A stretch of DNA of 64,000 nucleotides, taken from Protoeuglena noctilucae. Lineage: Eukaryota. Both the position numbers and the translations under genes were made by a program. The stretch covers positions 310,001-374,000 of the forward strand of contig OY253672.1 of the NCBI GenBank assembly GCA_958009085.1. Direction: 5' to 3'. This document shows, one piece after another, positions 1-52,900 of the stretch (the first letter of the stretch is position 1; each line of letters starts with the position of its first letter). Under the pieces are notes generated by a model. It made no database searches. It worked only from the letters and a program-made list of their open reading frames with translations, and was not told the origin of the DNA.

Positions 1-3000
1 GGGGTACGACCCCGCGTGCCTCATGCACACGGTGCTGTACGCGGACGGCACCCTCAGCGTGGCGTGCTTCCTGTTGGACGGCCTGGCCATCCAGCTGCAC
101 CTGGGGGAGGTGGTGCCGGGTGAGGGAGGGGGACACAGCGTGGCTGGGCTCTGCGTTGGCATACGCATGAGGTTGTGCCATGGCAGTGAGAAGGTCTGGT
201 GGGTGAAGCAGTCGTCGCCGATGGCATGCAAATGAGTCCTCTCTTGAGCCGCAGAGCCGGACGCCTCGACGCTGCGAGCCTCGGCGGCGCTGCTGCGGCA
301 CTCCGCGGAGGTGGCGGGGCGGTTCGCTGCGTGGCGTGCAGCAGAGGGGGAGGGCGAGGACTCCGGGGCGTTCCCCAGCGCAGACTTGGACATGCAGGGG
401 TTCACGGGTGAGGCATGGGTGTCCACACAGCCCTTGGAGGTGGGGCAGCAAACAGAGATACAAGGACATGGCGTGATGGGACAGATGCAGAGACGGGGCT
501 GCGGTCTCTACGGCACTCGGATGTCGTCCCTTCCTCTGCCTACATCGTCCCTGTGCCGTCCCCACACTCGCTGCACCTTACCGCTGCAGTGCGTCGGCAC
601 GCCGACTTCGCCACGTCCGTCGCGGCCCTGCGCGTGGCCCTGGGAGAGGTCCAGAGGGGCGCGGAGGGCGACGCGCTGCGGGCAGCGTGGGCAGCGGTGC
701 TGCATCCCCCAGAGCAGCGGTCGGTGCGGTGCAGCTTCGGGGGGGAAGCGGGGGCCGGGCGCAGGGCGCGGGGTGGCGCGGGGCGTGCGGCGGTGGAGCG
801 GCAGGTGAAGGAGATGGTGGCGGGGCTGGTGGACGAGGCGGGGGGCGCGAGGGCGGTCGCGGATCTGCAGGCGCGTGCGACGTGGCTGGCGGGCGTGGCA
901 GGGCAGCTGGACGCGGGCGCGTCGCTGGCGGAGGCGACGTATGCGCCTGAGATAATAGCTAAGGGGCTGGCATGCGCGGAGGAGGTGGTGTGGGCGCGGG
1001 CGGCAGAGGGGGTGCCGTGGGTGGCGGCGCTGGTGGGGACCTGGGAGGACCTGGCCCGGTGGGGCGGGGGGGCGCAGCGGCACGGCCCGGCGGACCGGGT
1101 GGCGGTGCAGGCGTTTGCCGGGGAGGAGTCCGACTGTGCGTGGGTGGCGGCCGTGGCAGTGCGACCCTTCCCCGCGGGTCTCAGGGAGGGCCTGGCGTCG
1201 AGCTTGGCGCCGTCCAGTTTGGGCCGGGTGCGGGAGTATCTGGAGGAGGACGCGCTGCCGGACATGATGCGGCTGCAGGACAACACGGGGTGGTACGTGG
1301 AGGGCACGTCGCAGGGGGAAGCGGTCCGGCGCAGTGACCCGCGGTGGGCGGCGGGGGTGCCGGAGGGGGGGTTGCAGGTGAGACGCGCCGCGAAGAGCAC
1401 TGCGGGTGTTTGTGAGGGACTCTCTTTGAGGGAAGAGCCAGGTGGTCGTGGACTGTTCCTCAGGATTTGTCGGTCATTACGCTTCCATTGCCCTCCCCCC
1501 GTGTCCCTCAGGTGGCCCCCGGTTTCTTCCTAGAGAGCGTCGGGTCGGTGGAGTACTGGGACCTGCGATACCACACGGAGAGGGACGTGTACCCTATAGG
1601 CTACGCCATGCGCACCACAGTCCAGCGGAGCAAGGGCAGGGAGCCTGAAGAGTTCCGCTGCAGCATCCGGGCCTCCCCCACGGGGCCGGAGTTTGTCGTG
1701 GCAGCAACGGGGCGCGCCAAGGGCCGGGAGTTTGCGGGCGGGAAGGTCACGCTGGCGTGGGCGGCGGCCATGGGCGAGGGACTGTCGCCGGCGCAGAGGC
1801 GCGCGCTGCCCAAGAAGTGCGGGCAGGACATGTTCGGCCTGCGAATCGGTGAGGAAGCGGGGTAGCATGCTTGCTTATGCGTGGATGCCCATGGCAGCAT
1901 GCCTGCGGCAGCTGCGGGCGTGACACTGTTGCTGCTGACACCTGTTGCTGCCAAGCAACTGCGTGACCCAGCGGACGCGTCTCTGTTCCGCAGACGCCGT
2001 GCGGGCCTTCATTCAGGCCCAGCCGACTGCTGCCAAGCTGCAGCACTTCCGGGCGTGGCTGCCGGGGTTCCAGCCACCATCGCAGGGCCTCACCCCCGAA
2101 GAGGCGAGGGCCAGCGGTGCTACGACGGCGGTTGCACATATGTAAAGCATCTCCGATCATCAAGACTCATCTACCCCATGACTGGTCGCATCACTTCCAC
2201 CACCGCCCCTCACAGTCATCCGGCGCCCCCCACCATTGCCAAAACCCCCACACAAACCTCAATGCCCGCCCCCTCGCTGCCCTCAGGAGTCTCGCCGCCC
2301 CCTGGAGCTCTCCCTCCGCCTGCGCCTGCCCCCCGGGGTGACCCCCCAGCCGCAGCCGACGCTCCACAGCGGCGCCTGCCACGTCTGCCACGCCGAGGAG
2401 GAGGTGGACGGGGACCTCATCCTGCACTGCGACGCGTGCCGGGTGGCCGTGCACATGTCCTGCTACGGCATCGCCGAGCCCCGCAGGGGAGGGGAGCCGT
2501 GGCTGTGCGCCGTCTGCGCGGTGGGGGGCACCGGCCTCCGCCCGCCCTGCGCCCTGTGCCCCTGCGAGGGAGGGGCCATGAAGCCCACCACCTGCGGGCA
2601 GTGGGCGCACGTCGCATGCGCCCTGTGGGTGCCCGAGGTGAGATAGGGGTGTGGCAGGAGCCGATGCTGTTGTTGACGACCTTGCGCCCATCGCAGGACG
2701 AGCCACGTGCCTGCCAGGCTCGGGTGCGCTCTCATGACTCGCCTGCGTCCCCTCACATGTCCCTCTCAGGTGGGGTTCGAGGACCCCTCGAGGCTCGAGC
2801 CCATCGATGGTCTGGCCTCGGTGCCCCCCGCCCGGTGGGCCCTGCGCTGCTGCCTGTGCCGGCAGCCTCACGGCGCGCCCATCCAGTGTGCCGGCAACGC
2901 CAAGTGCGCCCGCGCGTTCCACCCCCTGTGCGCCCGCGCCAAGGGACTGGTCATGGAGGAGGCCACCCCGCTGCCGTCCGGCCAGGGACGGCCCTTCCAG

Positions 3001-4829
3001 GGCGGCACCCAGGCAAGCGACGCGGGCACTGATCGCATTGAGCAGCAGTGGAGTGGCAGCGGCGGCACACGTTACGGTGGCAGTGGCAGTGATACTTGCG
3101 ATAGCAGTGGCAATTGCGGGGCACTAGCAGTAGCAGCAGCGGTAGCACTTGCAGAGCGATGGGGGCGTAGCGGATAGATCAGCGTTTCACCCCTTCCCCG
3201 CCCCTGCAGTGCGGCGGGGGTGTCTACCTGGCTGCGTACTGCAAGGACCACGCGGGCAGGGCGGGGGGTGGCCCGACCGCGGCGCACTTCCGATGCCGCA
3301 CGCTCAACCCCCCTCCCGGGCGAGCCTTGCCGGCGCCTGGGCCCAAGCGCCGGAGCCGTGGGCGGGGCACGACCAGTGCCCACGTCAGCCTTGCTGTCAG
3401 CCAAGACGTCATGGCTGGGATCGGAGAGGGCGAGGCGCGGGAGGGGTGCGCGAGGTCTCGGCCCATCGACAGCGCGGCGAGGAGGGGGATCCGTGCGCCA
3501 GACGCCCTGCAGGCCATGCTGGGTGAGGGACAGGGGTGTGGGGCTCTTTGTCTGTGTCACCCGTGCCTGTGAGCCACTCTGTGTTCGCAAACAAGATGTA
3601 ACATTAGCACTTCCGTGTCCTTTCTGTGACCGCAGACAAGCGTCGGTTCTTGGAGCGCACGCCCTACGCCGTGACGGGGTGCCGCCGCGTGGGAAGCATG
3701 GACGTGTACGTGGCACAGTGCACGGAGCTGTGGGGCGCCAGCCGATGCTACGATGCGCCACCTGGGAGGGACGTGCCGGTGGAGCTGGCGTGGGATGGCA
3801 CGGAGGAGTGGGGGAGGGCACTGACGATGCACGGGAGGGCAGGCGCAGGGCTGGCGGGGGAGGGGGCGGTCAAGCAGGGTGGCGAGGGTGCAGCAGGGGG
3901 CGGGGCGGTCAAGCAGGAAGTGGAAGGGGGGCGGGGAGCGGCAGGGCGGGGCGGGAAGGGTCGGGGGAGGGGCAGGGGCAAAGGCAGGGGCAAACAGTGG
4001 TCTGAAGCCGCATGGGTGGGCGCAGGGGCTGGGCGGCTACCACTGCAACTGGACCCGCTGCCACCCTGCGCGGAGGGTGCGGTGACGTCGCGCGTGGCGC
4101 CCGGCCTGGCCCCTCGGCACCCCGCATGGGCGCCTGGGTGCGAGGGCCGCGCGTGGAGTGCCGCGGAGCGCTTCGCTCTGATGCACGCGTCGGTGGGGGA
4201 GCGGGTCGTGACGGGGAAGAGCGCCATCCACGGACTGGGCGCCTTCGCGCGGCTGCCCCTCCGCTCGAGCGAGATGGTTGTCGAGTATGTGGGGGAGCTG
4301 GTGCGGGGGACCGTGGCCGGTGAGTGCAGTAGGGAAGCTGAATCCGAGTGCTGGGCATCGACGTACTGGAGTGCGTCGCTGCAGTTTGTCCATTGGCACC
4401 CGGATTGCACCTGCTTTACCCACATCGCACCCGTGCATATGTGTGCTTGCAGACCTGCGCGAGCGTCGGATGTACGACCGCCTGGTGGGCGCGGGGACGT
4501 ACGTGTTCAAGCTCAACGAGGCGCAGTGCGTGGACGCGACGGTCAAGGGCAACCTGGCGCACCTCCTCAACCACAGCTGCGACCCCAACTGCCGGTCGGC
4601 CACCGTGACCATCGACAGCGTCGACCACGTGGTCATCTTCACCATGCGGGACGTGGCGGCGGGGGAGGAGCTGACGTACGACTACCGCTTCAGCGGCGAC
4701 GAGGTCCTCACGTGCAACTGCGGGGCCCAGGCGTGCCGCGGCAGGGTCAACAAGCCCGCATCCGACGCGCCCCACGCCTTGCTGCTGCCCTGGAGCGAGG
4801 TCGAGCCCCTGGCGAAAGAACAGGCCTGA
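1..4829 (+). CDS. Trithorax-like (ATX1/2-type) histone H3K4 methyltransferase, multi-exon, 5' end outside the window
   Basis: Spliced translation gives a Tudor-like GYD..HTVLYADG, PWWP (EVVWARAAEGVPWVAALV), FYR-like (YHTERDVYPIGY), PHD (CHVCHAEEEVDGDLILHCDACRVAVHMSCYG), ePHD (CALC..GGAMKPT..WAHVACALWVPE), SET (GKSAIHGLG, NLAHLLNHSCDPNC, GEELTYDYRF) and post-SET CNCGAQACRG. Stop TGA at 4827-4829. Confidence 0.92.
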
Positions 4830-4862: not shown

Positions 4863-7800
4863 CTAGAAGCGCACTGACTCGGCGGCGCTGGGGCCCGACT
4901 GCGGCGGCGGGAAGCTGAAGGAGCTGTGAGACGACGCCCCTGCCTCTGGGGAGGGCGGACCCAGTCCACCTGGGCCACCCACTGCGCTGCTCGCCGCGCC
5001 GCTTGCCACCCCGGCCACCCCGCGCCTCCCGCCTGGGAGAGGGACGAGCTGAGGGGTGCGTGCGGGGACCCGCGTCGCCTCCGCCCCAAGCCCCAGCCCC
5101 CCGCCCCTGGCGCGCGCGTTGGCCGCCCGCATCGTCGCGTGCGCCCTGGCCACGGCGGCCTCCAGGCGGTCCCTCTCCGCCGCCTCCTCCGCCGTCCTCG
5201 GCTCCCCCCGCTGCACCGCCCGCCGGTACTCTCTCTCGGTCTCCGCGCCCCTCTGGATGGCCTCCACCTCCTCCGCCGTCAGCGCGGCACCCGGCACCGC
5301 CTCCTCCGCCGTATCGGCCGCCATCTCCACCCCCCCGCTGGGACCTGGCAGCTCGGCACTCGCTCTCCCGTCCCCCACCGCCTCGAACGCCTTGTAGTTA
5401 CCCACCCCCGGCAGCCGCGGGCGACGAAAATAGGTCAGGATGGACGAGAGCGGGCGCAGGGTGAAGACCACCTCGCTGTCGTCCTCTAACAGCCCCCGGC
5501 CCGACGTCTGCGGGGAGGCACAGAGGCTCACTGGCTCACATGGGCAGTCGCCGATGTGAAGCATTGACAAGCGAATGCTCTCGTGCAGGGACACTGCACA
5601 CCATTGCCGTGCGGTCAGTGCCTGAGGCAGGGCAGGGTAGGGCGCTGGCAGGTGCCATGGCTCACCTCGAAGGGCAGCGTGCAGACCAGCACCGTGGCGA
5701 TCAGGCACGTGACCAGGAAGATGGCCTGTGCGGCGCTCTGGTTGCCGGAGGAGACGAGGGTGACGCTGGCGAAGGGGCTGAGGACGCCACCGAGACGCGA
5801 GAAGCTGTTGCAGATGCCCAGGCCCACTGCGCGGATCTTGGTCGGGATGGCCTGCGAAGGAGCGGGGACGGGGCTTGAGAGACACCTCGCGTGGTCTCTC
5901 TCACGACACATGTCGTCACCCATTCTGTGTTTCACGTCACCCAGCCCTTCCGGGGACTGCCAGCTCCCCTCGCTCGCCTCGGGGGTGTAGATCCACGCGA
6001 CTTGGAACGTGGCCAGGATCAACGCGCGGGACATGAAGAGCATGGCGACTAAGGCGCCCCGGGGGATGGTGAAGAGCGCGGGAATCAGGAAGGCGGCCGT
6101 GAGGGCCAGGCCCCAGGACATGGTGGGGATGCGGCCGAGGGGGTGACAACAAAGAGCGCGAGAAGGATGCCTGGGAAGGCGGGGGAGGGGTTGGGGTGCT
6201 TGGAGGCAAGGGGGCTGCTGTGGTCGAGGCATGCCTCAGTTTTGTACCAGGGTCGCACCTGGCAGCTCGGCAACGGTGGTGATGAAGATGTCACGAAAGT
6301 CGGAGCTGTGGAGGTTGGCGCGGTTGCCGGAGCAGCCGTTGGCGGTGGCGTGCACCTCGGTGATGAGCAACACCACGCCGTAGTACGTGAGGGCGCATGT
6401 GAGCCAGGTGAAGAGGAGCACCAGCATCATGTCCCTGCACAGGGGAAGACAAACAGTATCGTTGCGCCCACGCCCGAGCCATGTGCCTACCCACGCACCA
6501 ACACACACCGAGCACCCCCGCCTCGTCCCCACCCAGCCCACGCGCCACGCACCGGTAGGGTTTGCGGAACACGGCGAGTAGCTCGTCGAGGTCCTGCCGC
6601 ATGCGTGACAGCCACGCGGGCCCCCGTCCCCTCGGCACCGCCCAATGATGCTCTTCGTCCACCACCACCGCCAGTCCAGGGTTGGCCCCGAACGCCAGAG
6701 AGTTCGAGGCGTGCGCTCCGTCCCACGACGACGACGACCGCCGTCCCAGGGGAGGCCCGTGCCAGTGGCTTCCGTGAGCGCCTGGGGTAGCTTCGTGGCC
6801 TGCAGGGTGACTGCCGTTGACACGGCCCGCCCCCGATGTCCCCTGGCCGCGTGGGTGCGAGGCGCCGTGGGGCCCACTTGCGCCCCCCGCTCCCCCCGCT
6901 TCCAACGCCATGTTCCGGTGGTGCAGGTGCCACCCCGCGCCCTCCCCGTTCGCCCGCCCGGGCCCGACGCGCCCCCGCTCCTCCTCACCCAGATCCACGT
7001 CCTCCATTTCCACGTCCAAGTCCTCCAAAGGGTCTCGCCCGTGCGAGCCACTGCCGTGGTCCGGATCCTCACCGTCCGCCCGCTGCCACCCGCCCCGCCT
7101 CGTCCCCAGGAGCCCGCGCCAGGCGTCGTGGCCGTTGGAGGGTCCGTGGCCGTTGGAATGCGCGTGGCCGCTGCGGTCGCCCTCGTGGGCGTGCGAGGGC
7201 GCGTGGGGTGCGTGGGGCACGGAGTCATGGTGGGCGCCCTCCTGCCCCTCCCGCACCAGGGTCCCCGGGTGAAGTTCGCAGCCGTTGTACGCGGCGACGC
7301 GGTGCAGGAGGGCCTCGACCTCCCGCAGCTTGCCCTTGGAGAGCAGGAAGTGGGGGCTCTCTGGCACGAAGGGCACCAGTGCCAGCATGAGGACCTGGGC
7401 GGGAGTGGGAGAAGGGTGGAAAAGGGTCAGCAGGACGCGGCAGCATAGTCGGAGACTAGAGGGGACATGTCAGATACCAGGGCTGCGGAGGGGCTGCTGC
7501 GGGGGTCACCATGGGGATGGCAGACACAGCGACCAGGACGCGCCAGGAGTGGCCGCTGCCGAGCAGGGCCCACGCGAGTGCCCCCTCGAGCATGGACCCT
7601 GCGGGGACATCGGAGATGGGCAGCTGCCGGGCGTGGCGCTGGCCATGACCCCCAGCATGGCAGCATGACGGCATCGGTTATAACCACGTGTGCTGGCTGC
7701 AGTCGTCCTGTGCGATGGCCTCACCCACAGTCCAGAAAAGGACGGTGCTCATGAGGAGGCGGCCGCGCAGAGACGGTGCCACGAACTCTGCCAGAAGCGT

Positions 7801-12368: not shown

Positions 12369-12627
12369 CTGTCACGCGACGATGGGCCATGTTGAACGGC
12401 AGACTCTGCAGCGGCGCACTAGCAGGCGCCCCGCAAAGGACTAGGCGAAGGCGCCGCCAGCGCGGCCATCGTCATGGCAGGCAGCCGCGCGCCCGGCACG
12501 CACGGGGCCTCCCTGCGTCACAGCCAATGACAGCCCTGCGGGCGGGCAGATCAGGCGTCGTCGCGTACGGCGCCGGGCTGGAACACACGCGGTCTGCCCC
12601 GCCAGCCCGCCAGCTCTGCGTCCCACC

Positions 12628-13469
12628 TCAGTAGAAGAACCCGATGACCTTCCCACCCAAGTGCTTGCGGCGCGCCTCCTCGTGGTCCATGATCCCCGCA
12701 GACGTGGTGAGCACCACGTAGCCGAACAGACGCGACGGCAGCAGGCGGTTCATCAGCAGCTCCATTTCGGAGGCCTTGACGTCGTACCGCGGCGAGATGC
12801 AGCCGCACTTGTTGAGGCGGCCGTTCAGGTGCACCACGATCTGCAGCGGGGTCGAGAGGGCGTCGCGCCGGGCCGCCTCCGCGCCGTGGGCAGGCCAGCC
12901 CACCACAGCCCGCGGCAACTCGCCTTGCCCGCCCGGTGGTCGTCCACGTACTCGAACTCCCCGATGTAGCCGTGCTTCTGCATCACCCGCAGGAACTTGA
13001 TGACCACCTTGGACACGGGGCGGATGAGCACCTGGGGACGGGGAGCCACGACGCGCGTCGTTCCATGCCCACGGCGTCCAGGCCAGCCGCGGCGGCCAGA
13101 GCGCGGGCCCGGGTTCGAGGAGCATCGACAGCCATCGAATGCGGAGGCATCCCGCCCCATTCGCGGCACCCTCCCTCGCGCACGGACGGAAACACCCCCT
13201 GCGGCCCTCCCCGCCCGCGCTGGCCTCCACGCGCCCGCCGCGAATCGCCCATTACGAACCCATGTGCCGGACTGCCGCGCTAAGCCGACGCCCGGGCTCG
13301 CAGCGACCCAAGTCGGGTCCGACCGCCCCCCCACCCCCCCCCTCCGGCGGCCGCGAGCCCGCGGGGCGCCTCCGTTTGTTCCCCCGCAAAGACTCGCCTG
13401 CCGCTTGCACCGCTTCTCCGCGTTCACGATCGTCTTGAGGCAGTCGTGAAGCACCGAGATCCGCACCAT
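12628..13469 (-). CDS. RPS15A: 40S ribosomal protein S15a (uS8), 3 exons, both introns GC-AG
   Basis: [81 protein letters not shown]...[26 protein letters not shown]. Confidence 0.98.
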
Positions 13470-14116: not shown

Positions 14117-15720
14117 ATGTCGCTGGCCCTGCTGAAGCTCACGGAGGGCGCCCTGGCGTCGCTGCTCCCGGGCACGTCCAAGGCGGTGTTGCAGGGACTC
14201 ACGGACGCGTCGCTGACGGCCTTGTGGGCCGTCTTTTTTGGTTGCGGTGAGCCCCAGCGCGCCAGCATCGCCGCGGCGGCGCCGGGGGTGCCTCCCCCGC
14301 CACTGCCGACGCGGGGCTTGTTGACGATGCTCGCGCGCTGGATGCGCCCGCCGACCTCCGTCCCCGCGCGCCCCCAGTGGTCCATGTGTTCCAAGGGGTC
14401 GTTGCAGAGCCCTTGGCTCGAGCCGCGTGCGTGGACTGGTCCGCGAAGGGGAAGATTGCTCCGACCAAGGAGGAAGGTGGGGGCGTGGCGCCGGGGCGCG
14501 TGGGGGGCTGGCGCGACCGCATGACGTAACGACGCGGGGCAGCGGAATTCTCTGCTCCCGGAGCAACTCGGCGATCCGCGCGCAGAGGCGACGATCGTGA
14601 AGTTCACGGAGTCCCTGTGGAAGGCCACCGTCTACACCACCTTCGCGGGCCTGGCCGTCTGGGTGCTGCACGACGAGGTGTATTGGTACGACACGCGGCA
14701 CTTCTGGACCGGCTGCGGGGACCTGCCGTGTCTGCTGCCGAAGGCAGAGGACCACAGGTGCGCGGCGTTGGGCTCCCTCGCCTGCCTCGCTTGCAGCCTT
14801 CCGCCTTGGCTCACCGGGGTGCCGTGACGCGACCCGTCGCCCGCAGGCTGCTGTACTCGGTCGAACTGGGCTTCTACATCTTCAGCATCCCGTACCTGCT
14901 CTTCTTCGAGTCCAAGCGCAAGGACTTCCTCGTCATGCTCCTCCACCACGCCTGCACCTCCCTCCTCATCCTCCTCTCCTTCGCCCTCAACTTCATGCGC
15001 GTCGGCCTGGCCATCATGTTCCTCCACGACGTCTGCGACATCTTCCTCGAGACGGCCAAGGTCTGGAACTACACGACCAAGGCGAGGGGCGGGCAGGCGG
15101 GGGGTAGTGGCTGGGGGTACGACGCTTGCAGGCGACACAACACCTCGCTCCTGCCGGCCCGCAGCACACCGGGCGGCCGGACACTGCGGCGGGGGTCATG
15201 TTCGGCGTCTTCACCGTCGTGTGGGTGCTCATGCGCTGCGTCTACTTCCCCTTCTGGTGCATCTGGAGCGTGCTGTTCGAGGTAATACGGGGGGCTGGGT
15301 TGAGCATCTGGTTGCGGGCGCGGGGCTGCGATGGCGCGTTGTGGATGGCCGGTCGCATGCTACCCGCAGTCACTCGACGTCATGGTTGAGGATCGGGAGC
15401 GAGTCCCAAGGGTGAGATCCCTCCTGCACGTGGCGGAGGCTGTGCCTGCGGCACCACGCCACGCGCTCTGACGCCACCGCTCGCCCTCCGCCGCAGCACA
15501 TAATCATCATCTACGGCTTCAGCGTGCTCCTCATCGGGCTCCAGCTCATGCACATCTACTGGACCTATCTGATCTCCATCATCGCCTTCCGGCGAGTGCA
15601 CGCGCCCACGCTGACTGTCAACGGAACCGCAGCCGCAACCCCTCCTCACGCCGCCCACGCTCGGATCGCCTCCGCAGGAAGCTCGCGTACGGGGTCGGCC
15701 GCGACATTCGGGAGGAGTAG
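14117..15720 (+). CDS. LAG1: Ceramide synthase (LAG1/LAC1, TLC domain), multi-exon
   Basis: KFTESLWKATVY, YSVELGFYIFS, Lag1 motif RKDFLVMLLHHACT..FMRVGLAIMFLHDVCDIFLETAK, LQLMHIYWTYLI, C-terminal RDIREE*. The last intron is inferred at 15592-15677. Confidence 0.92.
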
Positions 15721-34423: not shown

Positions 34424-37400
34424 ATGGCCCTCCAGCTGGCTATCGATGACTTGGAGGCGATAGCGTGGCAGACGACATGGACAAGGCCATCGCCGCCCTT
34501 GTGCCGGGCTCGGAGGACGCCACGTACCTGGCAAGGGCGCATATGCTCGCGCAGCCTTGCCGGGCCGCATAGCGTCCGCTTCGCCGGCTACAGCATACAC
34601 GACATGCTGTATCGGGAGTGTTTTGCCACAACCTATGGATGGTGCGTGATCGCAGCGGGTCCTTCAGCTCGAGGCCAGCGGCCAACTCGCCGAAGCGGAC
34701 ACCGTCCTTGCGGAGTGGTACAAGCGCAGGGGCTCGGGCAGCACTCTGTACGAAATCGCCCGGTGAGCACGCCGCTGGTCACCTCACGTCGCACTGCTCG
34801 TGCTCCCGTGCATCTCTCAGCCCGTGGACCCGTCTGCGGCCGCAGGACGCGACAGGCGCTCCTCTGGTGCACGCGGGACCTGCCTAAAGGCATCACGATC
34901 CTCAAGGACCGCCTCCATCCGGACCTCAGCCACCAGCGCGTGACGGACGCCGTCCCCCGTCACCTGCCCACGGCCCTGGAGGCGTCCGCCACTGACGTGA
35001 CCGAGCTCAAGGCCCAGGCTCGGGGGTACTCGCTCCTCAGCGCCGTCACGGACGCGGGACTTGAGGCTTTCGCTCAGGATGTGAGTCCGCTCGCGTCATG
35101 AGATCCGCCCACGCATGCATGGCATGGCCCTGCCTACGACCCCGCCATGTGTCCGCATGCAGGCGCCCACCCTGGACAACCCCACCCCATCCCACCCATC
35201 GCGGCCCCTGCTCCACCACCTCCTGTCCCGCATCTGCCGCCCCGACTTCCCCAACCTCTTGGCCCTGGTGCTCTTGGGCCTGGAGGCGGAGGGCGAGGGG
35301 TCCTTCGGGCAGCTGCCCATCCACGGTGCCCTGACCACGCCTCAGCTGGACGAGCTGGGCAGGCGCAGGCCGCAGCTTTGGCGGCACCCGGAGTTCGTGC
35401 TGCGGCGATGCGCGCGGCTGCTCCCGGAGTCGGGACCCGGCTGGGAGCGGCCGGCGACGGCGGAGGAGGCGGCGGAGCGGGGGCGCTACCTGTCTCGCCT
35501 GCGTGCCTTCGCGGCACCCCTCGACCCCGCCTTCAACGCCCTCAAGCACCTCGCCCTCTACCACCTTCTCGACCACCACCGCCGCTTCGGGGGCATGCTC
35601 GATGCCCTTCCGCTCCTGAAGGAGTTCCTGGACATGCCGCGCGACGCCGAGTGGCGGGCCCCCGTGGCGAGGCAGGGTGCCGGCAGGGAAGAGCACGCGT
35701 TCTATCTGGGGACCGACTACGCCCGGTGGACGCGCCTGCCAGCGGTGCGGGACGAGCGGGGACTGGTGGAGGCGTACCTGGAAGCTTTCTTTGCTGATGC
35801 CCGTGACGAGAGCGCCCACGGCCTGGACGCCTTCGTAAGACAGGACTACCTGCGCCGGGCACTCGCACGCGCGAAGCTGGCGCGGGGGGCGCCCGGCACT
35901 GACAAGGCGAGCGGGGGTCGAGCAGAAGCGCCGCGTTGTGCTGCTGGTTGTCACTGGCTGTTAGGGTCCTTACGCTGAGGCTGGCCGGCGTGGTCCGCTG
36001 CAGTGGGCCGAGATGCTCGGGCAGACGGCGATGGAGGAGCTGGCCAAGCGCGTGACGATCCAAATCACTCCAGACAACCCGGAGTACTACGCCGGTGGGT
36101 GACAGTCAGGCTGGGGCGGCCACGCTGCCTACTGCTGGGGGGTGACTGCGCCGGTGTCGATCCGCAGTAGGCAAGTCTCGAGGGAATTGCAGTGCTTGCG
36201 TGCAATCCCCCGCCCCGTCCGCAGCGTCCGACCGCGTGGTGGTGCGTGCCGAGGTGCAGAACGTGCCGAGCCTGACGGTCCAGGTCTTCGAGATGAACGC
36301 CGTCAACTATTGGCGCGCCACGTCGGAGGAGGTGGACGTGTCGATCGACCTCGACGGCCTCGTGGCCAGGCACCGCCGCGTGTTTGACTACAGCGACGTG
36401 CCGCCCGTCAGGAAGGAGGTCCGCACTTTTCAGGCAAGGCGTGACTCCACCTTGCTGCCGGCTGCGGGTACTGGGCAGAGCGTCAAGACTGCAGAACGCA
36501 GAGCAGACTTGGTGATCCAGTGTGTTATGTATATATACAGGATACCACACATGTCTCTCTTGGTTTCACACGACTGCAGCTGGAGGAGCTGTCGGAGCCA
36601 GGGACGTATATCGTGGAGCTCATCGGGGGCGGTCAGAGCAGCCGCTGCCTGGTGCGCAAGGGCCGGCTGCGGCACGTGGAGAAGACGGACGCGGCGGGGC
36701 ACGCCTTCCTGGTGCTGGACGAGGCGGGTGAGGGTGGTTATGAGAAGGGGTGTGCGATAAGACAAGTGAGGGTAGCTATGGGTGGGGAGTGAGGTGGTCC
36801 CCACACCCAATGGACGGCTGATTGCTGCAGCTGTGGGTAATGACAACCCTCGTCGCTCATCACTAGACACTCGCGCCCGCTCTCTACTGTTGCAGGTCAG
36901 CTGCTGACGGATGCCAAGATTCTCCTCGAGGGCCGCGAGCACCTCCCCGACTCCCGGGGCCTGGTGCGGGTGCCTTTCGGGGCCTCGCCGTCCCTCAAGC
37001 GCGGTCTGCTGGTGCATGGCCGCCTGGCCACGCCCTTCGCCTTCACGCACCTCAGCGAGGCGTACGCGCTAGAGGCAGACGTGCACGTGGACCGAGAGCA
37101 GCTGCTGGAAGGCGCGGACGCCACGGCGGTCGCGCGCGTGCGACTGACGGTGCACGGGCACGAGGCGCCCCTTGCCAGTCTCCTGGAGGACCGGGTCATG
37201 GCCGTCGAGGCGGTGGACCGCGCCGGGGCCGTGTCGCGAAAGGAGGTGCGCGGGTGGGCGGTGGTGGAGGGGGGTGACGTGACGCTCACCTTCCGCGTGC
37301 CGCCCGGGCTGGCCAGCGTCACCGTCACGGTGGCGGGAAGGGTGCTGGTGGCCAGCACGGGCCGAAGGGTCGACGTGAGCGCCTCGCGGCGGCACGAGGT

Positions 37401-40400: not shown

Positions 40401-43400
40401 AGAGCGGGGCTGAGCTTGTGGAGTTCCTCGACCCGCCGCGCCTGGCCGCTCTTAACGCCTGCGAGCGGGTGCTGCTGGCCAGGGCGCTGGATGAGGCGGG
40501 GGTGCGGCCCACGGGGGTCCCGGGGGCCACCCACCGGGAGCTGGAGCGTAAGGTGGGGGCTGGTGGGATGAGGAGTCGTGTGATGCGCGCTGTGGTGGGC
40601 GCGGTTGATGTGACGTGTTGGCGAAAACTCATATGCCGCTCTCTCCACTGCGCCCACAGCTCCCCCACGCTCACTCGCACCTGTGCAGCTTATAACCCAT
40701 CCATCTGAGCAACAGTGCCTTTCATCCATCATACTCACTCCCTCCCACCCCGTTCCCCCAGCATATTGCGGATGCGCTGGCGTGCGCCCCGCCTGACCCC
40801 GAGACCTGGCAGCGTCTCTTCCAGTCGGCGCTGATGGTCGGGTCGCTGTCTGGGTCCAACGAGGAATTCGAGAAGCACAAGAGGGAGGCGCAGGACAGGG
40901 CCCGGAGGGGCCAGGGAGGGCGGGAGGGCTTAGAGAAGGAGGCAGATTGGGAGGTGGTGGAGCGAGAGGGGCGCGCGGCGTCGTGGACGGAGGAAGAGAG
41001 CGATATGTGCGACGATCTCATGAGCCTGTCTGCGCCCGGGGCCGCGACGGTGACGGGGTACGGGTCCTCAAGAGGAGCGCCGCCCCCGCCGCCAGCTCTG
41101 GGCATGGCGCCAGCCCCTGCGCCACAGAGCCGCAGCCGACGTGAGACGGGGCGGGGGTAGCGGGCAGGGTGGCTTGGATCGCTGTGACTTGCCGCGATGT
41201 CGCCAGGTGTTGGGTCGTATCTGTGTGCATGGATGTGTGCTTGAGTTTGTTGATGGGTGCTACCCACGTGGTGTCTTGCAGGGGCCGAAGCGCTGGACGA
41301 GAGGAGCGCGGCGCCAAAGGCCCAGGTGAGCCGCGGCTGCCTCGCGTGTGCTTTGCGCAGAGTGCTTTAATGTTGAAAGACCGCGTCGGCAGTGTCGTGT
41401 TAAGAACACGGCGGCGTTGGTATCGCTTGTGCTGCAACGGGCACACACCCCGCACACACCACGCTTGCAGCCTTTCAAGAAGATGGCGCTCCCGAGGCCG
41501 GTCCCCGACGTGGCGGCGTTGCGCAAGGAAGCCAAGCCCCTCTTCCAGCCTGTCGACGCCACAGGTACGTGATGGCAGACGCAGCTGATACACGGCTTGC
41601 AAGGCAACAGCCCAGCCTTCATCTCAACCCCCATGACACCCTCCCTCTGACCCATGTGCCCCATGTCTCACGCAGAGGAGTTGGCCGAGACGCACTACTA
41701 CCGCCAGAGCCTGCGAGCCCAGGACGCCTCCCTCGTCACGCCCTCGCGTTTCTGGCAGGACCTGGCGGCCCACGACTCGGGCCCGTTCGTCTCTGGGTCG
41801 GTCCTCTGCGCCCACCGGAGCCTCACCGAGGCCCTCCTGGCCCTCGCACTCACGGACCTCCCCTTCGCAGCGGCAGCCACCAACCAGGACTTCACGGCGA
41901 TGAGCATGCAGCTGCGCTTGGCGCCCGGGGCGTCGCCCACCGCCGCCGCGCTCGCCCTGCACCGAGAGATCGCCACCGACACCGACACTGGTATCAGTGA
42001 TGTCGGCACCAGCAGCAGTCACGGCACCGATGGCGGCGGGACTGCCACCCCCGCCCTTGGCCCGGTGCTCGTGAGCCAGCGGCTGGTGCGGACGGACGAC
42101 GCCGTTCGCGTGGTGGACGGGGAGAGGGTGCACAAGTTCGTGGACCCCAGTCGCTGCGTGGCCCAGGCAGAGTACCGCACCCAGGTCGTCCTCACCAGAC
42201 CCACGCCGGCCGTGCGCAAGCTGTCGGTGCTCATGCAGGTGAGGGGAATGGTTGAGGGTGGCAAAGGTGCGTGATATGACTGCCAAGCCCTGCGGGTACC
42301 TGCAGAGTGACACTGAGCTACATGCCTGCCTAGCCTGGCCATCGCTTGCACAATCCCTGGCAGCTCCTATCAATCGCACATGTCACCCGCATCCTCCCTC
42401 CCCGCTTCCCCTCTCACACCCATCTCCCCTCGTCCCTGCGCCCTCCCCAGGTCCCCGAGGGCGCCGTGCCCACGTCGGGCAGCTGGCCCACCCGCAGCAC
42501 GGCCGTCACCCTCAGTCCCTTCAGCGCCCAGTCCCTGGAGCAGAGCTTCTACTTCCCGCACCCCGGCAGCTTCCGCCACTGCCCCGCCTGCATTGCCGAG
42601 AAGGGCGCCGTCGTGGCCAGGGCCGACCCTGCGGCCGTGACGGTGGCAAAGACCGAGGCTGAGGCCGACCAAGGGAGCTGGGAGTGGGTGTCGCAGGCGA
42701 GAGCTGAATGTGATGTGGAAAGTAGTTTGACAATGACGGGGGGCTTTGCACTGCTAGTGCGCCGCAGCTCGTTTCGGAACGACACATCGTATGGGGACGT
42801 GCTGCGCATGAATTGAACTTCGCCCGCTCCCACCGTGGCTGCAGAAGGCTTCCCTGGATGAGCTCCTCGCGTACCTGCGGACGGAGAACCTCCAGGCGGT
42901 CGACCTGACCATGATGTGAGTGCTGCAGCCATGACGATATGACGTCGTCCATCAGCATGTGATGATGATACACTGAGCCTTCACTACCACCAACGTATGG
43001 TCAGTGTAACCTGTGTTCACCATGCGCCTCTGTATAACATATGGTCCCAGCCAATGCTGTCCTCTCCCCCGCAGTGCCTGGCGCGTCCGCGACCGTGCGT
43101 CCTTTGACGCCATCACGGCCGCACTGCGCGACCGTCGGTGCTTCCACGGACCCATCTGGGCCTACGCCTTCCTCCACCAGGACAAGCGCACGCTGGGAGA
43201 GATGCTCAGGGCCATGCTGGACGACGAATGCCCGGTCGGGTGAGCGGCAATGATGGAGTTGAGCGGTGGCGGGGTTGCTAGCAGCGTTGAGCGTCACTTA
43301 CATGGAAGAACAACGGGCTGCGTGCGTGACTGGCTGGTTTCCAAACCGAATGGACTGTCCTGACCTTTGTGGACACTCTGCAACCCTGTCAGCCACCCCA

Positions 43401-45212
43401 CCCCCGATGCCCCAGTCCGTGGTTCGAGGGCTGTGACTTGCTGGGCACCGTCAGTGCCGAAGAGCTGGGGGAGTACGAGCACCTCGACTATGCCCCGCTC
43501 ATCAACGCCCGCGCGCACCGCCTGGGCCAGCGGCGAGAGATCCTCAACGGCAGCTTCGCCGCCCAGTACAAGCGCCTGCTGCACATGCTCTGCCACAAGC
43601 CGCGCCTGGCGGATGCCGACTGGATGGCCGTGGCGGGGTACCTGCTGCTGCAAGTGAGACGCGAGATGCGATTACCTCATAGTGTGCACGTCACGCAACT
43701 GCAGGATCTCACTGCACTGCACATTCGCACCTGCTCTGTACCTATGGGGCCCCATGGACAGCCCTCCGCTCGCCGGTCGCCAATGCCAACCTGTCACTTT
43801 CTCACCGACCCCACATCTGTCATCGCAGGACCGCCCCAGGGAGGCCCAGGCGGCATTTGCGCGGGTCCGCCGGGACGCGTGCGGCTGTGAGCTGCAGTAC
43901 GACTATCTCCACTGCTACCTCCTGTTCTTCTCCGAGGTTAGCAGATGACGCGCTGATGATAGTCTGGTGTGACATGAGAGACGAGTTATACTGTAGGGCC
44001 ATACTGCAGCTACTGTACATGTCTGGCTGCCCATCCACCATACCCTCATTGATACGGATCACCACTTCTTTCCATTCCGTAGTGTCCCGAGGACGCTCGT
44101 CCGATGGCGCAGCGCTACGCCCAGTACCCGGTGCTGCGGTGGCGGGGGCGCTTCCTCGCCGTGCTGCAACACCTGGACGAGGCGCGGGGGGGCGCGGGGG
44201 AGGGGCAGGCCGCTCCCGGTGCGTTCCTGCGAAACCCTACCTTGCTATAAATCCTGTGTATGCAGCGTGGAAAGCTCCCATAACTTCTGATATGTGCATG
44301 GGTGGTCCAACACTCCCGCCCACATTGCAACGCTGCTGCATGTACAGCACACGCACCAGTCCACGCATTCACGCATATGCCTGTGTACCACACCTGCCCC
44401 ACCCTGACGTGACCCCGCAGATGCGGGAGAGGACCGCGACAGGGACGCCCGTATGGCCGCGGCTGCGTCCACGGAGCCCTCCCTCTCTCTGGAGGCGTCC
44501 GATGGCCGCGTCCTCATCCGCCACGAGAACGCCGCCGAGTGCGTCGTCAATCTCTACGCCATGGACGTCGAGCACCTCTTCTCCATCCAGCCATTCATGC
44601 AGGCGAGTTAGTGCTGGCGGGAAGTGACTGTGAAGTACCAGTGCATTGTGGCCTGGTATCTATGGCTTGGTAGATGTGCGACCCTCACACCATGGGCACG
44701 TCAGGTCGTGTCCCACACCAACCACCCGCCCCCTTCACCATTCTTCGCAGAGGGACGGCCAGGACCGCTTCAGTTTCGTGTCGCCCAACGCCACCTTCCG
44801 CGTCACACTTTCAGGCGGAGGGCGGGGCGCGGGGGTCACCCCGTTCGACCTGCCCCCCGACCTGAGCCGTGCTGACGTCATGGTGGAGGCCCTGAGCGGG
44901 TCGGCCCGGGCCGTGCGGGCGCTGTACAGCTCCCGGCTCACCGTGGCCGTCACAGAGGCCTTCGGTCAGCTCCGGGCATCGGACAAGGATACCGGGGCTC
45001 CGGTGCCGGCGGCGTACGTGAAGGTGTTTGCGAGGGACCACGGCGGGGCCTCCCGCTTCTACAAGGACGGGTACACGGACGTCCGTGGCCGCTTCGACTA
45101 CGCCAGCCTCAGCACCGAGGGCGACCTGGGGCGCGTGGCGCGGTTCGCCATCCTCGTGATGGGCGCCAGCCACGGCGCGGTGCTGTGCGATTGCGGCAAG
45201 CCCAGCTCGTGA
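34424..45212 (+). CDS. Very large (~2000 aa, >25 exons) uncharacterised protein with helical N-terminus and beta-sandwich (macroglobulin-like) segments
   Basis: Continuous chain of GC3-biased exons with GT/GC-AG boundaries: DKAIAALVPGSED, RQALL..HQR, VQNVPSLTVQVFEMNAVNYW..IDLDGLVA, GTYIVELIGGGQSSRCLVRKG, SEEYQYVLARR..PGNMLPRPSLLLNPW, YSDYACHELHLFL..KDPAFF, ELAETHYY, YEHLDYAPLINARAH, C-terminal YVKVFAR..FYKDGYTDVRGRFDYASLS. Start is 34424 (needs a frameshift) or 34477. Confidence 0.85.
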
Positions 45213-49974: not shown

Positions 49975-52900
49975 TCAGCCCTTGGAAACGTCCGGCAGGA
50001 CCCAGTCGGAGCGTACGGGCAACCGCAATCCCGCCTTCTCTGCCACGAGCGCCCCCGGCAGCAATGCTCTGCGGAGAAAAGCCGATGCCTGCATTGCAGC
50101 ACCGCACGGATGAGCACCGACCGCAGCCCCTGCGCGCCCCTGCTCACCCTTTCCCCGGCGCCAGAGTACCGTGATCCAAGCCCAGGATCTGCACCCTCGT
50201 GACATGGACGTCGGCAGCCCCGTCGCGATCGCTGCCCGGGCCCCGGCTCGCTCGGCACCGCAGCTCTAAACCATCGTAGGAGAACTCCGAGACGCAATAC
50301 TCCCCCTCCCTGCGAGCCACGAGGCCATCCATTCGTTCCGTAAAAGCACCAGCCAGGAGCCGAGCAGGCGACCCATCGTGGCACATTGTGCACAAGGACA
50401 GCCCGTGCGCCCACCTGAACGCGAACGTCGCCCCATCGTCCAGATACAGCCTCCCTGACGCCCGCCCGTCTGGCCCGGGCGCGACGACCAGGCACAGGTC
50501 GGACACTCGGGTGTCGGCCGTCGTGGACCCCACGGACTCGGCCACGGGCACGATAGTGCCGCCCCGTAGGAACATCGCGGGATGGTCGGGCCCCACGCCG
50601 ACACCGGCCTCGCCGATGCCAGCGCCCACCACGCTGCCCGAGGCCACGTTGTACCAGCGGGCCTCCCGCGGCAAGTGCACGCGCAGGACGCCGGCCGGGA
50701 TGTCCGCTGCCGGCTGCATCACGGGCGCCACGAGGAGCGCCTCGCCCACTGCGGGTCAGGAACAGACCTCGTCACATATTGACACAGAGACACCCCCGCA
50801 GGAGGTGGCGCGTCCCGGCTGCTGCCCCCGCGCTCACTCATGAACTGGCTGTCCAGGTGCGCCACGGACAAGTCCTTGGGGCACTCGAACCACATGGGCC
50901 GCATCACGGGCAATCCCTCGACGTGCGCGCGCCAGAAGAGCGTGTAGATGTACGGCAGCAGTCGGTAACGCAGGGCAATGGCTCCCCGGATGCGCGCGAG
51001 CGTCGTCTCCCTGCGACGCAAACGGGCGGACAATCCCACGTCAGCCAACGTGACACTGCAAGCATGAGATGTCTGTGCAGACGCCAGCCAGCCAACTTTG
51101 GGTCTTACCCAAAGAGCCAAGGCTCCCTCCGCTCCGTGTGCTCGTGGGCGTGGCCTCGGAAGAAGGGGTAGAAGGTGCCGAGCTGATACCACCGCTCCAG
51201 GAGCTCCGGCTCCGGGTTCCTGCGTGAGCGAGGGCCGTTGCATCTCGCATTTTGAGCACCTCAGGACTCAAAACAGCTGCGACCGCGTCAGGCGCGCTGC
51301 AACCAACGCAACGCACGCACCCGAAAAAGCCGCCCACATCCGCGCCGACGAAGGGGAGGCCCGAGGAGCTGAGGGATAGCAGCATGGGCAGGGTGTGGCG
51401 GAGGTGGTCCCACGAGGCCTGGGTGTCTCCGGTCCACAAGGGTCCCAGGCGCTGCGTGCCCGCGAAGGCCGCGCGGGTGAGGACGAAGGGACGCACGCCC
51501 TTCTCCGGATTCAGCAGGCGCCCACGCCGCAGCAGCCCGTCGACGGTGGCCGCGTGGAAGTAGTGGCCAGAGACGTTGTGCACGTTGCGGTGCTCAGTGC
51601 CCGAGAGATGCAGGGCGTCCTTGTCCATCGTGATCTCGGGGCCGTTGAAGACGGACGGCTCGTTCATGTCGTTCCAGATGTGCAGGTGCTCCGTGGAGCC
51701 CTCGTACGCGTCGAGCTGCAGCAGGCCGGCCCACCACTCCCGCACGCCCGGGTCCAGCCAGTCCGGGTACACGCTGCGGCACGGCAAGCACACGACACCT
51801 CAGCTCCGACTCCCCAGGCCTGGCTCGCCGCGCGCCTGCGATCGAAACGCACCTGTCCCCGGGCCAGCACTCTCCGTGGTACGGCGCCCCGTGCCGGTCG
51901 CGCACCGCCCGCCCGTCCATGGTTTCTCGAAACACCGCCCAGTCGGGGTCCGACGCGATGTGCGGGTCCACGATCGCCACCATGTGCCGCCCGTCCATGG
52001 CCAGCTCCTCCTGCAAGGCCCCCGGGTCGGGGAAACGCGCCCGGTCCCACGTCAGATAGCGCTTGCCCCGTGTGTGCTCAATGTCGAGCCAGATCACGTC
52101 GCACGGCACTGCATGGTCGCGGAAGCCCTGGTTCACGGCTCGGACGTCCGCCTCGTCGTCGTAGTTCCATCGGCACTGGTGGTAGCCCAGGGACCAGAGG
52201 GGCGGCATCTCGGGGCGCCCGGTCACCCCAGCGTACTGCCGCAGGAGGTCCGCGGGGCGTGGGCCCAGCAGCACGAACATGTCCAGCTCCCCCGCCTCAA
52301 ACGTCCACTGCGTGAAAATCTCTCCCACCCCCGACGCCTCCCCGGGCTCGCACGACGCCGCCAGGCCCCCTGGTGGCCTGCCCGGCCGCGCCACGTCCAC
52401 GTACGCCTCGGTCGCGTTGTTGAAGAACACGCCCACCGTGCGCCGGGGCCCGTGCGCTTGCATGAACGGGATACTCGCGTACAGCGAGAAAGGGTCGCCC
52501 GTCTCGTAGGAGAAGACGTCCAGGTTGTAGAGGCGGTACGGGGAGCCGTGCGCGGCGTCGCCGCCATTGCTGGTCGGCCCACCCGGCCCACCGTCCTCCG
52601 GCAGGGACACGGTGGGTCGCAGGGCGTGTCGCACGCAGTGTTCGGGGATGCCGTAGACCTCGGCAAAATCATGGAAAGTCACGTCCAGGGAGAACGCTTC
52701 CGGGCCGAAGGGCTGCAGGGGCCGTCCGGGGTGCTGGTCGTCGCACAGGCGGGCAGCAGAGCCAGGCAGGCGCTGCTCACAATACTCGCCTTGGTGTCCG
52801 TCCAGGCCTTCCACGTCTCGGCGTGGGTCGCGGCGGCAGACGGGACGCCGGCGCGGTGCTCGAAATCAAAGAAGCCCCTCGCGTTCAGCGTGATGAGCGC

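What the first reader, a model, noticed from the sequence alone, without database searches (positions are those of the whole stretch)
2104..52789. GC-AG introns are far more common than the usual ~1%
Seen: restoring reading frames by eye points to GC donors, mostly with a strong AG|GCRAG context, at 2104, 3013 (ATX), 5977 (MFS), 12923, 13397 (RPS15A), 15082, 15592 (LAG1), 17582, 17944, 18756 (P5CS), 21161, 22070 (CYP51), 24032 (RING), 24591, 25848, 28303 (PanK), 33607, 34531, 35907, 36434, 42697, 44603 and 52789. That is about 23 sites, very roughly one intron in five by my tally. Established: GC-AG introns are about 1% in most eukaryotes, with a few enriched lineages. Inference: this alga may have a relaxed or altered 5' splice-site recognition system (variant U1/U6 snRNA, U1-C or Prp8), with exon-end AG and +3 to +5 RAG compensating.
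Basis: partly seen in the sequence, partly recalled or inferred. Interest (0 to 1): 0.75.

Follow-up and report, generated by a model that had tools for sequence, protein, structure and literature searches.

The report
Abundant GC-AG introns, GC-rich alga
About a third of the checkable introns in this GC-rich marine green alga start with GC instead of GT, which is real but matches what has already been described in other very GC-rich algae.

Summary
RNA contigs from four marine metatranscriptome runs, all from one study, and two transcript-derived proteins mapped exactly onto the window give 26 introns: 16 GT-AG and 10 GC-AG (38%). Adding junctions fixed by contig boundaries, Pfam/PDB contiguity and homologue panels gives 44 GT and 20 GC, or 31% of 64.

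- 19 are supported.
- None is refuted.
- 4 (2104, 3013, 5977, 33607) rest on reading frame and motif only.
- One GC-AG intron was missed (25937-26062, minus strand).

In the RNA set, all 10 GC donors are consensus at -2, -1, +3, +4 and +5 (AG|GCRAG), against 1 of 16 GT donors (p=2e-6). Altered U1/U6/Prp8 could not be tested because no genome is held. It is also not required by the data.

The phenomenon is in print. Iwata & Gotoh 2011 report 39.6% GC-AG in Aureococcus and 22.2% in Micromonas pusilla, both with a canonical U1 5' end. Feldmesser 2014 report 56% in Emiliania huxleyi.

The window is a 67% GC chlorophyte-grade green alga with no close named relative. Verdict: a new member of a known kind. 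Earlier notes of this scan concerned Ostreococcus GT donors, not GC-AG enrichment.

The parts
12841..12923 (-).
   Evidence: RNA joint in 4 of 4 runs; only GC..AG placement fits; Pfam Ribosomal_S8 on flanking exons
13032..13397 (-).
   Evidence: RNA joint in 4 of 4 runs, resolved
15082..15164 (+).
   Evidence: RNA joint in 4 of 4 runs; TLC profile continues across it
15592..15677 (+).
   Evidence: Contig pieces start at 15677 in X1 and X2 (table 8). The length of the X2 contig fits the fully spliced model. The coding frame ends at the donor. The joint itself was not among the 15 printed.
17492..17582 (-).
   Evidence: RNA joint; exact mapping of P0001
17841..17944 (-).
   Evidence: RNA joint; P0001 mapping
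18661..18756 (-).
   Evidence: RNA joint; P0001 mapping
21161..21240 (+).
   Evidence: Exact mapping of the transcript-derived protein P0121; only GC..AG fits
22070..22161 (+).
   Evidence: P0121 mapping
24032..24152 (+).
   Evidence: Contig pieces begin at 24151 in X3 and X4. The RING C3HC4 motif is completed across the junction (...DPVITK|CGHLFC...). The Pfam RING profile starts at position 17 on the downstream exon.
24499..24591 (-).
   Evidence: Pieces 24151-24498 and 24592-... lie in the same contigs (X3, X4). The loose end before 24592 equals 24490-24498. Best of 38 alternatives against 5 homologues.
25673..25848 (-).
   Evidence: Homologue panel: an alternative GC donor at 25840 scores +15, and the best GT alternative scores -29. 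The exon reads ...[12 protein letters not shown] up to the donor. No Pfam hit on the short exons.
25937..26062 (-).
   Evidence: The X3 loose end after 25939 equals window 26066-26075. Best of 23 alternatives.
28159..28303 (-).
   Evidence: The Fumble profile ends at 272 on the last residue of the upstream exon and starts at 273 on the first residue of the downstream exon. Best of 16 alternatives; best GT alternative -65.
34531..34655 (+).
   Evidence: 9-homologue panel: this donor is best, and the best GT alternative is 218 below it
35907..36003 (+).
   Evidence: Best of 94 alternatives; best GT alternative -391. tblastn HSPs end at 35888-35912.
36434..36579 (+).
   Evidence: Best of 121 alternatives; best GT alternative -147
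42697..42844 (+).
   Evidence: Best of 70 alternatives; best GT alternative -111
44603..44750 (+).
   Evidence: L002 tblastn HSPs end at 44602 and restart at 44751 at the same query residue, 1952. This donor is best in the panel.
52713..52789 (-).
   Evidence: The upstream exon ends at residue 169 of PDB chain 5f0e_A and the downstream exon starts at residue 170. The upstream hit is weak, E=0.37. Read-through runs into a stop.
2104..2286 (+).
   Evidence: Frame and motif only. Read-through meets a stop 13 codons on. Local model advantage 5.3 nats.
3013..3209 (+). The acceptor is uncertain (3209 or 3512).
   Evidence: Frame and motif only. Local advantage 2.3 nats.
5852..5977 (-).
   Evidence: The downstream exon aligns to OCT1 458-514 from its third residue. 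The upstream exon has no PDB hit. Local advantage 8.1 nats.
33530..33607 (-).
   Evidence: Frame and motif only. Local advantage 7.4 nats. No Pfam hit.

Best explanation
These are ordinary major-type (U2-dependent) spliceosomal introns whose donor has C instead of T at position +2.

The genome is under strong pressure towards G and C. Third codon positions of P5CS are 94% GC, and intron interiors are about 68% GC. Under that pressure the A/T positions of the 5' splice site erode until pairing with the 5' end of U1 snRNA, and later U6, is only just sufficient.

A donor can give up the T at +2 only if -2, -1, +3, +4 and +5 all stay consensus (AG|GCRAG). GT donors instead give up +4 (GTGCG, GTGGG) or the exon-end AG. 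Most donors carry one deviation from AG|GTRAG, and in about a third of introns that deviation is at +2.

What is shown: the junctions, the GC dinucleotides, and the mutual exclusion between a C at +2 and any other deviation.

What is inferred: that the cause is GC-biased mutation or gene conversion acting on an unaltered spliceosome.
For: - 10 GC-AG of 26 RNA- or transcript-defined introns; 20 of 64 in the wider supported set (tallied).
- In the RNA set, all 10 GC donors match consensus at the five other positions, against 1 of 16 GT donors (Fisher p=2.1e-6). +4 is A in 10 of 10 GC donors against 6 of 16 GT donors (p=0.0026). 23 of 26 donors have exactly one deviation from the six-position consensus.
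- In the first 44 supported introns the figures are 13 of 14 GC against 3 of 30 GT.
- Predicted duplex energy with the canonical U1 5' end (kcal/mol): GT donors -8.05, GC donors -6.35, background GT/GC sites -2.9/-1.7. The GC donors with U restored at +2 would be -10.8.
- Window GC is 67%. P5CS codon position 3 is 94% GC. Intron interiors are C 0.32 and T 0.18.
- The 26 introns share no sequence beyond the splice signals, so they are not a repeat family.
- No GC donor has a U12-type /ATCC start (one search list).
- In print: GC-AG is exceptionally frequent in the most GC-rich algae, and U1 is canonical there (PMC3033335, passages). E. huxleyi has 56% of 241 curated junctions (PMC4028052, passages). 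Pelagophytes have 14-17% (bioRxiv 10.1101/2024.10.30.620910, passage).
Against: - GC content alone is not a sufficient cause in print. Micromonas RCC299 (64.1% GC) has 2.7% GC-AG and a Chlorella (the second most GC-rich of 61 species) has 7.7%, while M. pusilla (65.9% GC) has 22.2%. Some additional factor may be needed, and I could not look for it.
- GC donors are predicted to bind U1 about 1.7 kcal/mol less well than GT donors (p=0.0013), so compensation is incomplete.
- U1, U6 and the U1 snRNP proteins of this organism were not seen.
- All RNA runs come from one study and are assembled contigs, and 37 of the 52 joints were not shown to me.
- Tier B and C junctions were proposed by a gene model whose GC-donor matrix was trained on AG|GCRAG. 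For those tiers the consensus statistic is partly circular. Only the 26-intron set is free of this.
- The sample is a single 64-kb window.
Confidence: 0.72

Rival explanations
1. The 5' splice-site recognition machinery of this lineage is altered so that C at +2 is accepted almost as well as U. The change could be a U1 or U6 snRNA variant or base modification, or changes in U1-C, U1-70K or Prp8. The high GC-AG share would then be a consequence of that relaxation rather than of base composition alone.
For: - Published numbers show that GC content alone does not predict the GC-AG share: Micromonas RCC299 2.7% against M. pusilla 22.2% at similar GC content. The authors suggest RNA modifications or U1 snRNP proteins.
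- Among RNA-set donors that are consensus elsewhere, 10 of 11 carry C at +2. Intron-interior composition would give about 0.65. So T at +2 looks unconstrained in that context.
Against: - The strict AG|GCRAG requirement (10 of 10) shows that a C at +2 still has a cost that must be paid elsewhere, as expected for a canonical U1.
- The U1 5' end is canonical in both other algae examined in print.
- Nothing in the window bears on the machinery (no Rfam hit).
Confidence: 0.15
2. The GC-AG introns are copies of a recently spread intron-generating element (introner) that carries a GC donor, as a burst of intron gain.
For: Introner elements are known in Micromonas pusilla, one of the GC-AG-rich algae (recalled; Worden 2009 seen only as a reference). 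GC donors here are very uniform (GCGAG).
Against: All-against-all blastn-short of the 26 RNA-defined introns found only one 14-nt match, at two 3' ends and between two GT introns. Uniformity is limited to the seven donor positions. Lengths range from 80 to 366 nt.
Confidence: 0.02
3. The GC donors are an artefact: chimeric metatranscriptome contigs, a mis-set alignment (the same joints can be written AG..GC), or GT donors in the expressed strain that differ from the assembled genome.
For: All RNA evidence is from assembled contigs of one study. Many contigs in X2-X4 are only 95-99% identical to the window. Every joint has 1-4 bases of placement ambiguity.
Against: - The same joints occur in 4 of 4 runs with 0 other letters in the listed pieces.
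- No letter differences were reported (table 3).
- Independent JGI/Logan-derived proteins P0001 and P0121 reproduce the junctions and give full-length open frames of 748 and 547 aa.
- Each joint has exactly one G[TC]..AG placement.
- Homologues from unrelated organisms place exon ends at the same bases.
Confidence: 0.02

Closest known systems
GC-AG-rich nuclear introns of very GC-rich algae: Aureococcus anophagefferens 39.6%, Micromonas pusilla CCMP1545 22.2%, Chlorella sp. 7.7% (Iwata & Gotoh 2011, BMC Genomics 12:45, PMC3033335; passages read)
   Same: High genomic GC (65.9-69.5% there, 67% in this window). A GC-AG share tens of times the 1.3% average. Otherwise ordinary short spliceosomal introns. 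The same question about U1 was raised there.
   Different: A different organism. The window's P5CS and CYP51 have no named hit above 60% identity, and the genes here are much more intron-rich, with 8-9 or more introns per gene. The share here (31-38% of 64 or 26 introns in one window) exceeds the figure printed for any green alga in that paper, but it is not a genome-wide count.
Emiliania huxleyi GC-AG majority (Feldmesser et al. 2014, BMC Genomics 15:148, PMC4028052; passages read)
   Same: A 65% GC marine alga with the acceptor fully canonical. Gene predictors that expect GT mis-place junctions, as my neutral gene model also did in the opposite direction.
   Different: A haptophyte, with 56% of 241 curated junctions GC plus some GA. 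Here only GT and GC were seen among the resolved joints, and GT is still the majority.
Ordinary GC-AG introns of animals and plants (about 1%), whose donors show a stronger consensus at the other positions (Thanaraj & Clark 2001 and Burset 2000; recalled, seen only as a reference entry)
   Same: The same compensation rule: C at +2 goes with consensus at -2, -1, +3, +4 and +5.
   Different: The frequency is about 30 times higher here. The GT donors are also unusually degenerate (GTGCG/GTGGG), so nearly every donor sits one deviation from consensus.
Pelagophyte GC-AG introns (bioRxiv 10.1101/2024.10.30.620910; passage read)
   Same: 14-17% GC-AG, attributed to GC content. The low-GC relative Aureoumbra has 0.32%.
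   Different: Stramenopiles with fewer than one intron per gene.

Membership tests
U2-type (major spliceosome) GC-AG introns | The genomic intron begins with GC and ends with AG at a junction shown by RNA | tested here: met
   10 introns: RNA joints, loose ends and exact transcript-protein mapping. There is a unique GC..AG placement within each joint's ambiguity.
U2-type (major spliceosome) GC-AG introns | The donor is otherwise close to the U1-complementary consensus (AG|GYRAGT), more so than GT donors | tested here: met
   10 of 10 GC against 1 of 16 GT donors are perfect at -2, -1, +3, +4, +5 (p=2.1e-6)
U2-type (major spliceosome) GC-AG introns | Not U12-type: no /ATCCTT donor box | tested here: met
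   All GC donors read GCGAG or GCAAG. A U12 branch-site box was not searched for.
U2-type (major spliceosome) GC-AG introns | Pyrimidine-rich 3' end and YAG acceptor | tested here: met
   26 of 26 RNA-defined introns end in CAG, preceded by C-rich sequence
U2-type (major spliceosome) GC-AG introns | Removal by the U1/U2/U4/U5/U6 spliceosome | not testable with these tools
   Needs biochemistry or genetics
GC-rich-genome algae with inflated GC-AG share (class described by Iwata & Gotoh 2011) | Genomic G+C around 65% or more | tested here: met
   67% over the window, 64-72% in every 2-kb bin. The whole genome was not seen.
GC-rich-genome algae with inflated GC-AG share (class described by Iwata & Gotoh 2011) | GC-AG share far above about 1% genome-wide | tested here: inconclusive
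   38% of 26 and 31% of 64 introns, but in one 64-kb window only. No genome is held.
GC-rich-genome algae with inflated GC-AG share (class described by Iwata & Gotoh 2011) | Canonical U1 snRNA 5' end | not testable with these tools
   No U1 in the window and no genome
Introner elements | Introns share sequence along their length | tested here: not met
   Only one 14-nt match among 26 introns

The most novel reading that the evidence does not exclude
In this green alga, T and C at donor position +2 are functionally equivalent whenever the rest of the site is consensus. 10 of 11 such RNA-defined donors carry C, at least as many as base composition predicts. The cause would be a lineage-specific change in a U1 snRNP protein, an snRNA modification, or Prp8/U6 proofreading. 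That would make it an independent, green-lineage case of a re-tuned 5' splice-site code, and a tractable system for the 'enigma' left open for Micromonas pusilla versus RCC299.
Probability: 0.12. Interest if true: 0.6.

Novelty: new member of a known kind. Interest (0 to 1): 0.33.

Why it matters
Practically, any gene prediction for this alga that expects GT donors will mis-place roughly one junction in three. A model that treats GC as freely as GT over-calls GC donors: my first model put a false GC donor at 21749 where the transcript uses GT at 21737.

Biologically, this adds a green-algal case at the high end of GC-AG use. It gives a clean quantitative picture: donors sit about one deviation from consensus, and the deviation is at +2, at +4 or at the exon end, but rarely at two of them. 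That fits mutation pressure acting against a pairing threshold. It does not by itself reveal a new splicing mechanism.

Tried and rejected
- **Whole genome.** Not held, so no genome-wide count and no U1/U6 search. The Rfam gathering scan of the window gave 0 hits.
- **E. huxleyi as source.** This was my first guess and I dropped it. The best named P5CS hits are green algae and plants at 44-52% identity. A P5CS tree puts the window with an unnamed 78% relative, next to a pedinophyte (support 87/91, long branch) and near the trebouxiophytes.
- **Neutral-+2 gene finder.** It over-called weak GC donors (GCGCGCG, GCAGGGC and the like). One of these, 21749, is contradicted by P0121 and another, 35018, by the homologue panel. 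I did not use it for counts. The class-specific version predicts 135 introns, 28 with GCRAG-type GC donors and 11 with weak GC donors. I report it only as a rough whole-window figure (about 23% after dropping the 11 weak ones), and it is partly circular.
- **LAG1 contig arithmetic.** The X1 contig of 1414 nt is about 98 nt longer than the fully spliced model, and I could not explain this. The X2 contig length fits.
- **Other loose ends** (21728, 22451, 22971, 24193, 24790, 27412, 28358). They do not match neighbouring exons and were left aside.
- **P0154 alone (37% identity).** With fixed 150-nt flanks it was indecisive for 35907, 36434, 42697 and 34531. The 9-homologue panel replaced it.
- **Metagenome scan for cDNA of the large gene.** It returned only relatives at 38-49% identity and no own transcript.
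- **Third protein search.** It found no own transcript protein for that gene.
- **Unresolved junctions.** Five junction regions of the large gene (near 38894, 40553, 41050, 43240 and 44182) were mis-modelled and were dropped from all counts.
- **No-hit searches.** Pfam gave no hit on the short DUF89 exons, and PDB gave no hit on the MFS upstream exon.
- **Literature.** Searches for GC-AG with 'green alga', Chlorophyta, Chlorella and prasinophyte found no paper on a green alga with a higher share than M. pusilla. One search was uninformative. Subscription journals are not covered.

Full report
**What the window is.** The window is 64 kb at 67% G+C, and no 2-kb bin falls below 63.6%. No whole genome is held.

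Pfam on exon translations names these genes:
- a PHD/SET (ATX-like) gene
- an MFS transporter
- ribosomal L6-family and S8-family (RPS15A) genes
- a TLC/LAG1 gene
- P5CS
- CYP51
- a RING finger
- a pantothenate kinase fused to a DUF89/ARMT1 domain
- HVA22
- PsaO
- a GH31 glucosidase
- a thioesterase

The best named relatives of P5CS are green algae and plants at 44-52% identity. A P5CS tree puts the window with an unnamed 78% relative, next to a pedinophyte (support 87/91, long branch) and near the trebouxiophytes, away from streptophytes. I read it as a marine, chlorophyte-grade green alga without a close named relative. My first guess, Emiliania huxleyi, was wrong.

**Direct RNA evidence.** One search found four marine metatranscriptome runs of a single study that hold about 53% of the words of 12001-22000, the share expected if introns are missing. 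I laid them on 10801-30800. The tool found 52 joints but printed only 15.

For each printed joint I tried every placement allowed by its ambiguity. Each has exactly one G[TC]..AG placement, giving 9 GT-AG and 6 GC-AG.

Contig pieces and a loose end confirm 24499-24591. Another loose end, the ten letters after 25939, equals window 26066-26075.

The protein database holds two transcript-derived proteins identical to the window's genes: P0001 (748 aa, P5CS) and P0121 (547 aa, CYP51). I mapped them exactly onto the DNA with no constraint on intron ends. P5CS gives 4 GT + 3 GC and CYP51 gives 7 GT + 2 GC (21161, 22070).

Together this makes 26 introns defined without reference to any splice motif: 16 GT-AG and 10 GC-AG (38%).

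**Indirect evidence for further sites.**
- 28303: the Fumble profile ends at position 272 on the last residue of the upstream exon and resumes at 273 on the first residue of the next. Against five PanK-DUF89 homologues the junction beats all 16 alternatives, with the best GT alternative at -65.
- In that same test, 12 of the 15 junctions of the gene are uniquely best.
- 25848: a GC donor is favoured, at 25848 or at 25840 (+15); the best GT alternative is -29.
- 24032: contig pieces begin at 24151 in two runs, and the RING motif is completed across the junction.
- 15592: pieces begin at 15677 in two runs, and the length of the X2 contig fits the spliced model. The X1 contig is about 98 nt too long, which I could not explain.
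- 52789: the intron is 52713-52789. The upstream exon ends at residue 169 of PDB chain 5f0e_A and the downstream exon starts at residue 170, although the upstream hit is weak (E=0.37).
- The five sites between 34.5 and 45.2 kb lie in one gene of about 2000 aa. A metagenome scan found uninterrupted homologous ORFs of about 2100 aa. The best GT alternatives lie 111 to 391 points below the best model for the first four sites, and 35 to 120 below for 44603. One homologue's HSPs end at 44602 and restart at 44751 at the same residue.
- Five other junction regions of that gene were mis-modelled and are left out of all counts.
- 2104, 3013, 5977 and 33607 have only frame and motif support.

Overall, 19 of the 23 sites are supported, none is refuted and 4 are open. 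The supported set is 44 GT and 20 GC, or 31% of 64 (tally).

**More than chance.** AG|GCRAG occurs 48 times on the two strands, against 24.1 +/- 4.6 expected in first-order Markov simulations. In the pre-mRNAs of P5CS, CYP51 and PanK-DUF89, 9 of the 11 sense-strand occurrences are used donors.

**Anatomy of the donors.** In the 26-intron set, every GC donor is AG|GCGAG or AG|GCAAG. All 10 are consensus at -2, -1, +3, +4 and +5, against 1 of 16 GT donors (p=2.1e-6). GT donors deviate mostly at +4 (GTGCG, GTGGG: 10 of 16) or at the exon end.

23 of 26 donors have exactly one deviation from the six-position consensus, one has none and two have two. In the first 44 supported introns the contrast is 13 of 14 against 3 of 30. 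That wider set is partly circular, because my gene model's GC matrix was trained on the motif.

With the canonical U1 5' end, predicted duplex energies (kcal/mol) are:

| Site class | Energy |
|---|---|
| GT donors | -8.05 |
| GC donors | -6.35 |
| Random GT sites | -2.9 |
| Random GC sites | -1.7 |
| GC donors with U restored at +2 | -10.8 |

GC and GT introns do not differ in length (medians 96 and 91). The 26 introns share no sequence beyond the signals.

**Mechanism.** The simplest reading is an unaltered major spliceosome plus strong pressure towards G and C. P5CS third codon positions are 94% GC, and intron interiors are 32% C and 18% T. Each donor loses A/T consensus positions until pairing is just sufficient, so C at +2 is tolerated only where everything else is consensus.

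The idea of an altered U1/U6/U1-C/Prp8 is untested here and is not required.

**What is in print.** Iwata & Gotoh (PMC3033335; passages) found 1.3% GC-AG over 61 species, with these outliers:

| Species | GC-AG share |
|---|---|
| Aureococcus | 39.6% |
| Micromonas pusilla | 22.2% |
| a Chlorella | 7.7% |

They linked this to GC content. They retrieved U1 and found the canonical 5' end in Aureococcus, M. pusilla and RCC299. They noted that RCC299 has only 2.7% and called the cause an enigma that might lie in modifications or snRNP proteins.

Feldmesser et al. (PMC4028052; passages) found 56% GC-AG among 241 curated E. huxleyi junctions. A 2024 preprint gives 14-17% in pelagophytes.

My searches found no paper reporting a higher share in a green alga. 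The library lacks most subscription journals, and I could not name the species.

**Verdict.** The phenomenon and the obvious hypothesis about U1 are already published for other GC-rich algae. This is a new member of a known kind, notable for a high share and a very clean one-deviation pattern. What stays open is the factor that makes some GC-rich algae GC-AG-rich and others not. That needs the genome and its snRNA and snRNP genes.

Noticed in passing
window 34477-45212 (+): One gene of about 2000 aa and roughly 24 introns has no Pfam hit on 17 exon translations. Its homologues are uninterrupted ORFs of about 2100-2200 aa on many metagenome contigs (bioreactor, marine, sediment; 38-49% identity over the last 153 aa). 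It is either a widely conserved large protein of unknown family or an old transfer between bacteria and algae.
   Followed up: partly
window 12155, 14758, 16663, 17306, 19217, 20907, 21457 and others: GT donors favour GTGCG(G/C/T) over GTRAG. Earlier notes of this scan describe a GTGCG(T/C) donor as the published norm in Ostreococcus. I did not check that paper.
   Followed up: no
window 12.4-12.7 kb, 15.98-16.01 kb, 24.15-24.5 kb: Single RNA contigs run across the 3' ends of convergent gene pairs (unknown gene/RPS15A, LAG1/P5CS, RING/PanK-DUF89). The 3' UTRs overlap or abut. A poly(A) loose end marks the LAG1 3' end at 16010.
   Followed up: no
window 24406-29613 (-): Pantothenate kinase (Fumble) is fused to a DUF89/ARMT1 phosphatase domain in a single 939-aa frame. 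About 100 aa of Ser/Pro/Ala-rich low-complexity sequence is inserted in the DUF89 part, inside an exon that RNA contigs cover without a break (24592-25149).
   Followed up: partly
window 13910-15991 (+), X1 contig of 1414 nt: This contig is about 98 nt longer than the fully spliced LAG1 model, while the X2 contig fits it. It may reflect an alternative acceptor or a retained piece, and remains unexplained.
   Followed up: partly
window 10801-30800: In runs X2-X4, more than half of the laid contigs are only 95-99% identical to the window, so close relatives or other strains of this alga are present in the same samples.
   Followed up: no
window 9924 (-), 49576 (-), 56288 (+): These are further AG|GCRAG sites on the sense strand of likely genes. 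The last two are used by my gene model. They could be additional GC-AG introns and were not checked.
   Followed up: no
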